In this document: positions 57,937-63,642 of the stretch, in pieces | Layout of the letters: the number at the start of each line of letters is the position of its first letter | Numbering within the stretch: position 1 is the stretch's first letter | Source of the DNA: Eledone cirrhosa | Lineage: Eukaryota | Direction: 5' to 3' | Assembly: GCA_964016885.1 (NCBI GenBank) | Contig: OZ024740.1 | Span: 74,958,001 to 75,022,000 of the forward strand | DNA length: 64,000 bases | Position numbers and translations under genes: made by a program | The notes under the pieces: generated by a model | Told to the model about the DNA's origin: nothing | Seen by the model: the letters and a program-made list of their open reading frames with translations, nothing else | Database searches by the model: none

Positions 57937-58185
57937 TAAAACCCAGCCAGACCATAATTCACCTGAGTACTGGATACTTGGGGTAGTAGAGTGGGTAATA
58001 TGAAAAGATTCAGGACCCCGACGGCTGAGCTTCGGCCGTTTCGACAGCTAGATCCGAACTGCGGTGGAAACGGCCGGAGCTCAGCCGACCGGGTCCTGAA
58101 CCTTTTCATATTACCCACTCTACTACCCCAAGTATCAAGTACTCAGGTGAACTATGGTCTGGCTGGGTTTTACTACACCTTATCT

Positions 58186-58248
<63 letters not shown>

Positions 58249-58440
58249 CGAAGGAAGTGTGGTAAGGAACCAGATGGACCATAACGCACCAGAATACTCA
58301 ATACTTAGGGTATAGAGTGGCTAATAGGAAAGTGTTCAACCCCGACGACAGAACTCAAGCCGTTTCGACGGCTATTTCTGGACCAGAAATAGCCGTTGAA
58401 ACGGCTTGAGCTCTGCCGTCGGGGTCTTGAACATTTTCCT
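57937..58440. mobile_element. Two F1 copies (long-arm subfamily 57937-58189; 58246-58440), tail-to-tail across (TA)n
   Basis: 57937-58189 has ~105-bp inverted arms that include most of the tail, with core cggccgtttcgacagctagatccgaac...gaaacggccgg. Confidence 0.8.
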
Positions 58441-58495
58441 ATATGTATATTGAGAGAGTGAGAGGAAGGGAGATGTGAGAGAGAGAAAGAGAGGG

Positions 58496-59812: not shown

Positions 59813-59849
<37 letters not shown>

Positions 59850-60008
59850 GGATTTCGCTTCAAGCATAGCTTTATACAATATGTATAAATATTTCGTATC
59901 TCCAAAGAAATACGGTTTTAGAAAGCCGTAGCTATGCAACACCGGGGGGTGGAGTGGGGGTGGGTGGCTAACGCCCTCTGGTGATGTCCAGCAGAAGCAA
60001 GGGGGACA

Positions 60009-60052
60009 ACCGTCTATGCATTTCAGGCTTAACTGGCCTTCGTCAGGACGGT
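60009..60052 (-). ncRNA. Minimal hammerhead (family G, left arm), textbook fold
   Basis: Reverse complement accgtc-CTGACGA-aggc-cagttaa-gcct-GAAA-tgca-TA-gacggt. 6-bp stem I, 4-bp stem II, palindromic augcau stem III, AUA site. Confidence 0.85.
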
Positions 60053-60077
60053 CCCTCCCAACGCGTGCGACTGCTGG

Positions 60078-60121
60078 ACCGTCCTGACGAAGGCCAGTTA
60101 AGCCTGAAATGCATAGACAGT
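60078..60121 (+). ncRNA. Minimal hammerhead (family G, right arm)
   Basis: accgtc-CTGACGA-aggc-cagttaa-gcct-GAAA-tgca-TA-gacagt, with one stem I mismatch. Confidence 0.8.
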
Positions 60122-60263
60122 TGTCCTCCTTGCTTCTGCTGGACATCACCAGAGGGCGTTAGCCCTCCGGTGTTTGCATAGCTACGGCTTCCTAAAACCG
60201 TATTTCTTTGGAGATACGAAATATTTATACATATTGTATAAAGCTATGCTTGAAGCGAAATCC

Positions 60264-60913
<650 letters not shown>

Positions 60914-61076
60914 TTAGAATTGGAGCTCTGAAATAGCCATATATATATGAATGTATATATAATGTATTTTGCAATACACTTTATGCTTAATTAAAAGCAT
61001 TTTGAAGACCGTATGCTATTGTTTTAGAGTAGTGACAGACTCACTTACTTTAATCTCAGCAAACAGGGGGAGATAA

Positions 61077-61122
61077 AGCCGACAAGGCCTTGTTTCTGCA
61101 TTTGTTTATGCTTATCAAGGCT
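61077..61122 (-). ncRNA. Variant hammerhead with U3-A8 core (family J, left arm)
   Basis: Reverse complement agcc-TTGATAA-gcat-aaacaa-atgc-a-GAAA-caaggccttg-TC-ggct. Confidence 0.65.
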
Positions 61123-61216
61123 AACTACTCCCTCCCGTCTACTGAGATCACTGATTATTTACTAGATTTCTATAAGAATATAACATCAGTGATCTCAGTA
61201 GACAGGAGGGGTAGTT

Positions 61217-61262
61217 AGCCTTGATAAGCATCAACAAATGCAGAAACAAGGCCTTGTCGGCT
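61217..61262 (+). ncRNA. Variant hammerhead with U3-A8 core (family J, right arm)
   Basis: agcc-TTGATAA-gcat-caacaa-atgc-a-GAAA-caaggccttg-TC-ggct. Stem I agcc/ggct, palindromic stem III, canonical GUC site. Confidence 0.7.
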
Positions 61263-61407
61263 TTATCTCCCCCTGTTTGCTGAGATTAAAGTAAGTGAGT
61301 CTGTCACTACTCTAAAACAATAGCATACGGTCTTCAAAATGCTTTTAATTAAGCATAAAGTGTATTGCAAAATACATTATATATGCATTCATATATATAT
61401 GGCTATT

Positions 61408-61473
<66 letters not shown>

Positions 61474-61996
61474 CAAAGAGGGTGTGGTAATATACCAGGT
61501 GGACCATACCGCACCGGAGTACTCGATACTTGGAGTAGTATATATATATATATATAATACTTTAGGAGGGTCATGCTGCCAATAAAAACACACGCCCTTG
61601 TTGGACTTCACTTCAATTTATTATAAACTCCAAGTCGGTTAGTTTAATAACTGGATGGTGAAGTGAGAAGGTAGATAGATGGAGACTAAATAAACAGGGT
61701 TTGTGTTTCGGATACCTAAATATGGAATGTTACGCGATGCCCCCCCCCCCTCACACACAGCCCCGGTGGACAGGATAGAGTTGATTGTCAAAGCTCTTTT
61801 GTCACACATTCTGTGATCTCCCCAATGACTACTTTTGTTGTTATTTTGTATCTCTCTTTTGTTCTGTCCTACACCATATTGTATGTATGATATATATATT
61901 AAATATTTATACTCTGCTTTGTATTGAGTACCTTACTTACTGTGGTTACCCCTGATTGAACTCGGGATATACTTATATATATATATATAAATATAT

Positions 61997-62028
61997 CTGA
62001 TGAAGGAGTAGCGTCCGAAACGTTAAGA
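61997..62028 (+). ncRNA. Minimal hammerhead (family B), 5'-truncated at the core
   Basis: (TA)n-CTGATGA-aggagtagcgtcc-GAAA-cgtt-aaga. The copy starts exactly at C3 and lacks the 5' strand of stem I. Confidence 0.6.
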
Positions 62029-62115: not shown

Positions 62116-62396
<281 letters not shown>

Positions 62397-62634
62397 ATAT
62401 ATATATATATATATAACCAAAGATTAGTATGGTTCGTTGATTACTCAATGAATACAATTTTACAATAGATTAGAAGCACTCAACCGTGAAGTTTTCCTGG
62501 AGTTTTTAATATTATTCAAAATATTAACAAATAAAAATATTCTCATAATCAAAATATATACTTTATTATTGGTATTACTACCAATACTGGAATTTAATAA
62601 TCAAGACCGTAGCGGTATGTCATATACCAAATCA

Positions 62635-62704
62635 TATATTTTGTCTGATGAGGACGTACTGAAAAAACAACACAGTACCTCTGAAATATTTATAATAAAG
62701 TATA
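62635..62704 (+). ncRNA. Minimal hammerhead (family F) in fold-back element 62415-62752
   Basis: tatattttgt-CTGATGA-ggacgtactg...cagtacctct-GAAA-tattta-TA-ataaagtata. Inverted arms 62510-62568 and 62693-62752. The left arm shares gcactcaac...ctggagt with 40600-40625. Confidence 0.65.
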
Positions 62705-62745
62705 TATTTTGATTATGAGAATATTTTTCATTTGTTAATATTTTG

Positions 62746-62776
<31 letters not shown>

Positions 62777-63405
62777 AACAAATTAAAAGACTGAGAAATG
62801 AGAAAGTAATGTGATGTGTTGGAATATATGATAAATCAAATGTAATGAAACGAATGGAAAATGATAAAAAACAAACAGGACAATACAGAACGGGAAGATA
62901 AAACTGGAAACATTAACAACGAAACATTTCAGTCTCCAGCCGAGCACGTAAACTCACGATTTTTGGTCAGGAAACCATAGCTTAGCGTCCTATTTTTTGC
63001 CAGGAAACCATAGCTTAACGTCCTATCATGACGATAGTTCTAAATTAAAGCTGCCGTTTGGTAGAGATGAACAGTACGAAGGAAAGATAACTATTATAGG
63101 TGCGTTCAATTTATAGACATAAAACAAGTAAATTTGACGAACATAAAAATTGTGAAGAAACACCTGGAGTAAAATCAATCATGGACAGGTAGAAACAAAA
63201 GGGGTCTATACCGATTTATTACACACACACGCGCGCGCGCGCACACACAACACATATTTACACGTACAGCCACAAAGATACACATACACCCTCACTCTCA
63301 AACGCACACACATAAACACACGCACACTCATATAGGATTATATGTGTGTATATGTATGTATGCATGTATGTATGCATGGATATATATATATATATTTATA
63401 TATAT

Positions 63406-63603
63406 GAAAGGAGTCAGGACCTCGACGGCTGAGCTCCGGCCGTTTCTACAGCTAGATCCGAACTGTTCGGAGCTAGCTGTCGAAACGGCCGGAGCTCAGC
63501 TGTCGAGGTCCTGACTCTTTTCCTATTACCCACTCTACAACCCTACGTATTGAGTACTCTGGTGCGTTATGGTCCACCTGGTATCTTACCACACTCTCTT
63601 TGT

Positions 63604-63604
<1 letters not shown>
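63406..63604 (+). mobile_element. Family F1 copy (cggccgg subfamily) in (TA)n
   Basis: ggagtcaggacctcgacggctgagctccggccgtttc...gaaacggccggagctcagctgtcgaggtcctgactc hairpin plus tail. Confidence 0.8.

Positions 63605-63642
<38 letters not shown>

What the first reader, a model, noticed from the sequence alone, without database searches (positions are those of the whole stretch)
60931..61408. Second double-ribozyme palindrome with a non-canonical UUGAUAA core (C3-G8 replaced by U3-A8)
Seen: both arms carry agcc-UUGAUAA-gcau/augc-a-GAAA-caaggccuug-UC-ggcu. Known: positions 3 and 8 form a tertiary Watson-Crick pair and U3-A8 is a tolerated compensatory variant. A double change that keeps the pair, along with a GUC site, argues for a functional ancestor. 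Standard CUGANGA searches would miss it.
Basis: partly seen in the sequence, partly recalled or inferred. Interest (0 to 1): 0.75.

Follow-up and report, generated by a model that had tools for sequence, protein, structure and literature searches.

The report
Swapped-core hammerhead in Penelope-type repeat
This palindrome is one incomplete copy of an abundant ~320-base repeat that likely moves with Penelope-type retrotransposon enzymes; its predicted self-cutting RNA motif has a known U-A core swap, confirmed here against a C-G sister subfamily, plus an extra base that the lineage likely gained and later lost.

Summary
Observation confirmed: arms differ at 3 of 202 positions and each carries the U3-A8 type I hammerhead motif with an extra A before GAAA. 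The palindrome is two 5'-truncated copies of a 314-320-bp tandem repeat joined head to head in (TA)n; a 3' marker has 7,550 matches. In the window's subfamily group 902 of 934 motifs are U3-A8 and none C3-G8. A homologous sister subfamily (203 matches) is C3-G8, so 3-8 covariation is real between subfamilies, and all stems covary. The extra A is not conserved (251 of 934); trees suggest one gain and one loss. The two motifs lie on opposite strands and would not form a double ribozyme; two same-strand copies are predicted to. U3-A8 is in print (PMC3088659; PMC4209133, in Penelope elements), and this scan noted the family before on other DNA (e1-9598865, e1-9527955). No RNA or cleavage evidence. 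Verdict: new member of a known kind (animal non-LTR retrozyme). The insertion beside G12 is the only open point.

The parts
60906..61409 (.). Whole head-to-head insertion of the ~320-bp repeat family; unit positions 172-208 are missing, so no full monomer is present
   Evidence: BLAST of a natural unit (L016:1990-2305) on the window; arm map
60906..61155 (-). Left arm: 5'-truncated copy (unit 243-316 then 1-171) ending at the family's long 3' end
61151..61409 (+). Right arm: 5'-truncated copy (unit 209-316 then 1-147) ending near the family's short 3' end
61217..61262 (+). Type I hammerhead motif: stem I 4 bp, core U3-U4-G5-A6-U7-A8-A9 (61221-61227), stem II 4 bp, predicted cut after C17 at 61258
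61077..61122 (-). Same motif on the minus strand (U3 61118, A8 61113, extra A 61097, C17 61081)
61242..61242 (+). Extra A between C11.1 and G12; a subfamily trait
   Evidence: 251 of 934 motifs have an extra base; trees
61246..61257 (+). 12-nt self-complementary helix III (A15.1 to U16.1), predicted dimerisation helix
   Evidence: cofold of two motif copies gives the dimeric hammerhead at -32.9 kcal/mol
60906..60929 (-). Tail present at one end only
   Evidence: 38 of 51 head-to-head pairs have one short and one long end
61151..61155 (.). Junction of the two arms with a 5-nt overlap
   Evidence: junction gap -5 for L001
60867..60905 (.). (TA)n target, left
   Evidence: sequence
61410..61471 (.). 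(TA)n target, right
   Evidence: sequence

Best explanation
The palindrome is one incomplete, head-to-head insertion of an abundant non-coding 314-320-bp repeat that likely works as a non-LTR retrozyme mobilised by a Penelope-like element (PLE). Shown: tandem units, fixed 3' ends with a one-sided tail, variable 5' ends, (TA)n targets, a hammerhead fold kept by two-sided changes in every stem and at 3-8, and RT plus GIY-YIG elements with U3-A8 motifs in the same genome. Predicted: two same-strand motifs in a multimeric transcript pair through the palindromic helix III and cut after GUC. Inferred: the released monomer is circularised; a PLE enzyme nicks (TA)n and copies the RNA from two fixed start points onto the two DNA ends, sometimes for several rounds; the two cDNAs join at their truncated ends. 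U3-A8 is the family's usual core. The extra A is a transient subfamily insertion that was probably tolerated. This copy lacks unit positions 172-208 and has one motif per strand, so it would not regenerate a monomer.
For: Architecture: 48 of 64 loci head to head; 38 of 51 pairs with one end at unit 134-150 and the other at 157-175; 5' ends spread over unit 2-286; (TA)n beside at least one end in 50 of 51 pairs; an arm longer than one unit in 52 of 64 loci. Six consecutive 316-bp units of only 2 distinct sequences in L184. Inverted arms are more alike (median 97.2%, 38 pairs) than copies from different loci (92.7%, 5,829 pairs). Fold: U4, G5, A6, A9, G12, A13, A14, A15.1, U16.1 and C17 are unchanged in 27 of 27 rows while N7 varies (read from alignment A1); 8 of 13 pairs change on both sides. 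3-8; the C3-G8 unit is 244 of 311 identical to the U3-A8 unit. Dimer: cofold minimum is the dimeric hammerhead (-32.9), while the monomer prefers a non-hammerhead fold (-11.2 against -6.3). [quoted passage not shown] Literature: PMC4209133, PMC7229834, PMC8557442, bioRxiv 10.64898/2026.07.22.740005.
Against: No cleavage assay and no RNA data. A genome-wide test for insertions whose two arms both stop at the cut site gave 11 places against 7 at a control position, so there is no clear genomic footprint of cleavage; a 41-locus sample had only a weak excess (6 of 89 arms, 4 insertions). No PLE with a terminal repeat homologous to the unit was found among 50 GIY-YIG loci, so the helper is not identified. 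Stem I is only 4 bp and I saw no loop 1-loop 2 contact. In a Xenopus survey only 1 of 9 retrozyme dimers cleaved in vitro. Copies with a U3-G8 mismatch plus the extra A still formed multi-unit insertions (L038, L177), so a perfect core is not needed for every round. Covariation counts are not corrected for relatedness, and the 27 rows were chosen to span subfamilies among copies that matched a core pattern.
Confidence: 0.75

Rival explanations
1. The family is a retrozyme, but the extra A crippled the ribozyme; the extra-A lineage spread from uncut tandem transcripts until a deletion restored the core.
For: The insertion sits next to G12, the general base (PMC6155905 passage). It was lost again and the youngest subfamily lacks it. 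9 of the 11 U3-G8 mismatches fall in extra-A motifs, which are only 251 of 934.
Against: On the tree the stem I pair next to the core changed from U-A to C-G (node 100/98) while the extra A was carried (gain node 98/86), which suggests continued selection on the fold. Helix III is a perfect palindrome in 40 of 48 extra-A copies. Three of the U3-G8 loci form one clade, so they are not independent.
Confidence: 0.12
2. The arms are 5'-truncated terminal repeats (pLTRs) of an autonomous PLE that I did not find, not a separate non-autonomous element.
For: Inverted truncated copies with a one-sided tail are typical of PLEs (PMC8557442 passages). Only 50 GIY-YIG loci of a very large set were read.
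Against: In the arm maps of the 64 loci, arms longer than one unit continue into another unit rather than into a coding region; arrays of six or more full units exist. The one 3.2-kb gap between copies that I followed holds a Tc1/mariner-like ORF by eye (family name from recall, not scanned).
Confidence: 0.09
3. A foldback DNA transposon or MITE that happens to carry a hammerhead-like stretch.
For: Near-perfect long inverted repeats in TA-rich targets.
Against: The two ends differ systematically, the centre falls anywhere in the unit, single arms and head-to-tail arrays occur, and the RNA fold covaries.
Confidence: 0.04

Closest known systems
Animal non-LTR retrozymes (Cervera and de la Pena 2020, PMC7229834; Li, Clavereau and Pollet 2026, bioRxiv 10.64898/2026.07.22.740005)
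   Same: Non-coding 314-320-bp unit (published range about 170-400 nt), low GC (34.5%), one type I hammerhead per unit, head-to-tail arrays, thousands of copies, PLEs in the same genome.
   Different: Most copies here are dispersed head-to-head pairs in (TA)n (the word 'inverted' has 0 occurrences in the main text of PMC7229834). The core is U3-A8 in most subfamilies. RNA, circles and cleavage are not shown here.
PLE hammerheads, including the U3-A8 variant of Schistosoma mansoni Cercyon (Cervera and de la Pena 2014, PMC4209133)
   Same: U3-A8 core (about 1,300 hits there), short helix I, palindromic helix III, predicted dimer action, pairs on opposite strands 100-700 bp apart.
   Different: Their extra nucleotide lies between 9 and 10.1; here it lies between 11.1 and 12. 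Helix II is 4 bp, helix III is a 10-13-nt palindrome, and the unit is not joined to an ORF.
Natural U3-A8 hammerheads (Perreault et al. 2011, PMC3088659, section 8)
   Same: C3-G8 to U3-A8 covariation, stated there to be active in vitro.
   Different: Here both states occur in homologous subfamilies of one element. The insertions named in that section are A6a and U13a, not one between 11.1 and 12.
EN+ Penelope-like insertions with inverted truncated copy and tail (Craig et al. 2021, PMC8557442)
   Same: Inverted 5'-truncated copy, partial tandems, tail at one end, (TA)n preference.
   Different: No coding region; the tail is about 25-30 nt against the 30-40 bp described.

Membership tests
Type I hammerhead ribozyme | Conserved core U4 G5 A6 A9 / G12 A13 A14 / A15.1-U16.1 / H17 | tested here: met
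   All unchanged in 27 of 27 aligned rows; rows were picked by a core pattern, but the column table of 109 BLAST-found copies shows the same
Type I hammerhead ribozyme | Watson-Crick pair between positions 3 and 8 | tested here: met
   902 of 934 U-A; sister subfamily 94 of the first 100 listed C-G
Type I hammerhead ribozyme | Three helices with covariation, helix I open | tested here: met
   8 of 13 pairs with two-sided change, 98.2% paired
Type I hammerhead ribozyme | G12 directly follows stem II | tested here: not met
   The window copies have an extra A; 683 of 934 family motifs do not. This lowers the claim for this copy, not for the family
Type I hammerhead ribozyme | Self-cleavage after H17 | not testable with these tools
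   Needs a bench assay; the genomic stop test was null
Type I hammerhead ribozyme | Match to an Rfam hammerhead model | tested here: not met
   No hammerhead row at gathering score or at E up to 10
Animal non-LTR retrozyme | 150-450-bp non-coding unit of low GC with one type I hammerhead | tested here: met
   316 and 314 bp units, GC 0.345
Animal non-LTR retrozyme | Head-to-tail tandem copies | tested here: met
   For the family: L016, L058, L154, L184. The window copy itself has less than one unit per arm
Animal non-LTR retrozyme | Linear and circular monomer RNA | not testable with these tools
   No usable RNA run (see Tried and rejected)
PLE-mobilised element | Inverted 5'-truncated copy, one-sided tail, microsatellite target | tested here: met
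PLE-mobilised element | Homology to the terminal repeat of an autonomous PLE | tested here: inconclusive
   None among 50 GIY-YIG loci beyond a short shared terminal word and the U3-A8 core of L102
MITE or foldback DNA transposon | Identical defined ends on both sides | tested here: not met
   Only 3 of 51 pairs have two long ends and none has two short ends

The most novel reading that the evidence does not exclude
A natural hammerhead with a base inserted between C11.1 and the general base G12 stays active as a dimer. The family is a datable series of ribozyme variants on one master lineage: a U3-A8/C3-G8 switch, gain of the extra A, a compensated stem I swap while it was carried, then its loss.
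Probability: 0.4. Interest if true: 0.55.

Novelty: new member of a known kind. Interest (0 to 1): 0.36.

Why it matters
The headline feature, U3-A8, is known. What this family adds is both states of the 3-8 pair in homologous subfamilies of one genome, which is direct comparative support for selection on catalysis in a retrozyme, and a ladder of natural variants that can be assayed side by side. If the extra A next to G12 is tolerated, hammerhead search descriptors and core rules need one more allowed insertion. The ends also fit the untested idea that PLE enzymes mobilise retrozymes, but this scan has noted that for several other families in the same genome.

Tried and rejected
Rfam: no hammerhead match. 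RNA evidence: no RNA holder listed; laying contigs of runs X1, X2, X4 and X5 showed the family and its variants but nothing on expression, and the single low-depth X4 contig is not used. 'Fossil cut marks': BLAST mapping of 5' ends was confounded by divergent ribozyme regions and dropped; direct inspection gave 6 of 89 arms starting at the cut site; the genome-wide symmetric test gave 11 places against 7 for a control, and 5 of the 11 centre on a 4-nt palindrome that offers microhomology, so I claim nothing. My first reading that 3-8 covariation could not be shown was based on a stem II-specific pattern and was overturned by sampling with a 3' marker. L031, with copies 3.2 kb apart, is not a full PLE. 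Unit homology to PLE ends: none in 50 loci, apart from family pieces in L072 and L101 that look like separate insertions and were not followed. Covariation of the innermost helix III pairs, which would prove the dimer, was not significant (p 0.13). Lunse et al. 2017 (PMC5785218) is not held. Searches for mutant-rescue data and for an insertion between 11.1 and 12 listed no paper that I could identify as describing it; only listings were seen, and supplements were not read.

Full report
Observation. The two arms (60930-61131 and 61208-61409) are 202 nt long and differ at 3 positions. On +, U3 is 61221, A8 61226, the extra A 61242 and the predicted cut follows C17 at 61258. Rfam finds no hammerhead here. 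The insertion begins at about 60906, because the left end has a 24-nt tail that the right end lacks, and it sits between (TA)n tracts.

What the palindrome is. A DNA search of the window's genome (G000, 3.0 Gb) returned many copies at 96-100% identity. Mapping a natural unit of 316 bp (GC 0.345, cut site to cut site in L016) on 70 loci showed that every arm is a 5'-truncated run of a repeating unit. I dropped 6 loci that duplicated another insertion; 24 of the remaining 64 were best hits to the window and 40 were taken in order along contig C1 from the motif list. Of these 64, 48 have head-to-head arms and 52 have an arm longer than one unit. Of 51 head-to-head pairs, 38 have one 3' end at unit 134-150 and the other at 157-175; 5' ends are spread from unit 2 to 286; 50 have (TA)n beside at least one end and 31 beside both. 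Inverted arms of one insertion are more alike (median 97.2%) than copies from different loci (92.7%). L184 holds six consecutive 316-bp units of two distinct sequences. A 17-mer from the 3' part has 7,550 matches against 2 for the control. The window's copy covers unit 209-316 and 1-171 only, so it lacks part of the monomer. This layout matches the passages on PLE insertions in Craig et al. 2021 (PMC8557442, passages): an inverted truncated copy, partial tandems, a tail at one end and (TA)n targets.

The 3-8 pair. A pattern fixed on the window's stem II finds 934 motifs (control 0). Thirteen lack U3 (7 C, 4 G, 2 A, all with A8) and 19 lack A8 (11 G, 4 C, 4 U, all with U3), leaving 902 U3-A8 and no C3-G8. 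Within this group the two positions therefore vary only singly, as expected of decay after insertion. Sampling by the 3' marker revealed other subfamilies. In 41 loci, 29 gave 47 motif matches: 41 U3-A8, 4 C3-G8, 1 A3-A8 and 1 spurious. The C3-G8 subfamily has 203 matches; of the first 100 listed, 94 are C-G, 6 are single changes and none is U-A. Its 314-bp unit is identical to the U3-A8 unit at 244 of 311 aligned positions. It is one event on the tree, and its direction is not settled without a root.

The rest of the fold. In 27 copies chosen to span subfamilies, the catalytic positions do not change while N7 does. Of 13 pairs, 8 have two-sided changes, including all 4 of stem II, 2 of stem I, the 3-8 pair and 1 of helix III; 98.2% of cells pair, against 20-43% for slid controls. 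These counts are not corrected for relatedness. Helix III stays self-complementary or nearly so through many sequence changes. One motif alone is predicted to misfold (-11.2 kcal/mol against -6.3 for the hammerhead fold); two copies cofold exactly into the dimeric hammerhead (-32.9). The innermost helix III pair did not covary significantly (p 0.13), so the dimer rests on energy and on the literature (PMC4209133, parts 1-2 of 4; PMC6765202, passages). The two motifs of the window are on opposite strands, and a transcript through the palindrome is predicted to be one hairpin of -395.9 kcal/mol. 'Double ribozyme' is therefore a description of the DNA, not of a working unit.

The extra A. It is present in 251 of 934 motifs and in 1 of 47 in the 3'-marker sample. 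Copies within one locus agree in 37 of 41 cases. Trees built from flanking sequence with the ribozyme letters left out (100 rows x 137 columns; 83 rows x 243 columns; bootstraps not fully settled) form a ladder: no A with stem I U-A; gain of the A (98/86); stem I change to C-G with the A kept (100/98); loss of the A (95/79); then a subfamily with changed stem II. Median divergence within insertions falls roughly along this order (4.85, 3.15, 1.7, 2.5, 0.8%; n = 16, 10, 10, 7, 5), with one step out of order, and the window's group is biased toward young copies. The window's copy belongs to the A-bearing, stem I C-G group. A compensated stem change while the A was carried suggests that the fold was still selected. 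Against this, 9 of 11 U3-G8 mismatches are in A-bearing motifs, some in multi-unit insertions (L038, L177), although three such loci form one clade. Template switching between subfamilies could also blur the ladder. The section on core variants in Perreault et al. 2011 (PMC3088659, passages and section 8) names U3-A8 as natural and active, and names insertions A6a and U13a; Cervera and de la Pena name one between 9 and 10.1. My searches (listings only) showed no paper on an insertion between 11.1 and 12, but Lunse et al. 2017 was not held and no supplements were read, so it may be in print.

Helper element. The genome has many GIY-YIG loci (150 scored of 10,597 candidates). I read 50: the 30 best and 20 picked mostly for long open frames. 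Four (L102, L103, L111, L113) carry one shared U3-A8 motif, L095 a variant and L081 a C3-G8 motif. [quoted passage not shown] None of the 50 shares real homology with the unit, so L102 is a lead only.

Evidence for cleavage in vivo. Six of 89 arms (4 insertions) start at the cut site, but genome-wide only 11 places have both arms stopping there against 7 at a control position. I claim no footprint. In the Xenopus preprint only 1 of 9 dimers cleaved (parts 1 and 3 of 5 read).

Mechanism and verdict. Most likely a multimeric transcript is cut by paired hammerheads, the monomer is circularised as shown for other animal retrozymes (PMC7229834, part 2 of 6 and passages), and a PLE enzyme copies it onto both ends of a cut in (TA)n from two fixed starts. 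The fixed ends are my result; the two-ended priming wording comes from earlier notes of this scan. Cleavage, circles and the helper are inferred. Earlier notes describe what appears to be this family on other DNA of the same genome; one labels the genome octopod, which I did not test. The finding is a new member of a known kind. Interest 0.36, with the insertion beside G12 as the one testable surprise.

Noticed in passing
window 59815-60298: Neighbouring palindrome in (TA)n with canonical C3-G8 motifs on opposite strands (60053-60008 on minus found by script); no homology to this unit.
   Followed up: partly
window 58000-58445, 62241-62400, 63402-63610: Three related head-to-head pieces of another (TA)n-targeting repeat family, also seen beside GIY-YIG loci L087, L097, L111 and L118; no hammerhead found by my scans.
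   Followed up: partly
window 61955-62000 and 62533-62728: A CTGATGA...GAAAC stretch near 61970 seen by eye, and a 44-nt inverted pair around another CTGATGA core at about 62645.
   Followed up: no
L102 (G000:C1:145870500-145876500): Apparently full-length RT plus GIY-YIG element with direct terminal repeats 4,979 bp apart, each with a U3-A8 motif; the same motif occurs in L103, L111 and L113.
   Followed up: partly
L095:2201-2240: GIY-YIG locus followed by a U3-A8 motif with the same core and stem II letters as the window's, flanked by a U on each side (a U-U mismatch or two extra bases); ends in (TA)n.
   Followed up: no
L031:2554-3438: A transposase-like ORF (Tc1/mariner by eye) about 0.3 kb from a copy, between two multi-unit runs of the family.
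   Followed up: no
L038, L177, L182, L183: Multi-unit insertions in which all or most units carry a U3-G8 mismatch, so the template RNA had it.
   Followed up: partly
L001 and L004: Two insertions whose short end is at unit 147 instead of the usual 138 (2 of 102 arm ends); the two are identical over the 135 nt compared.
   Followed up: no
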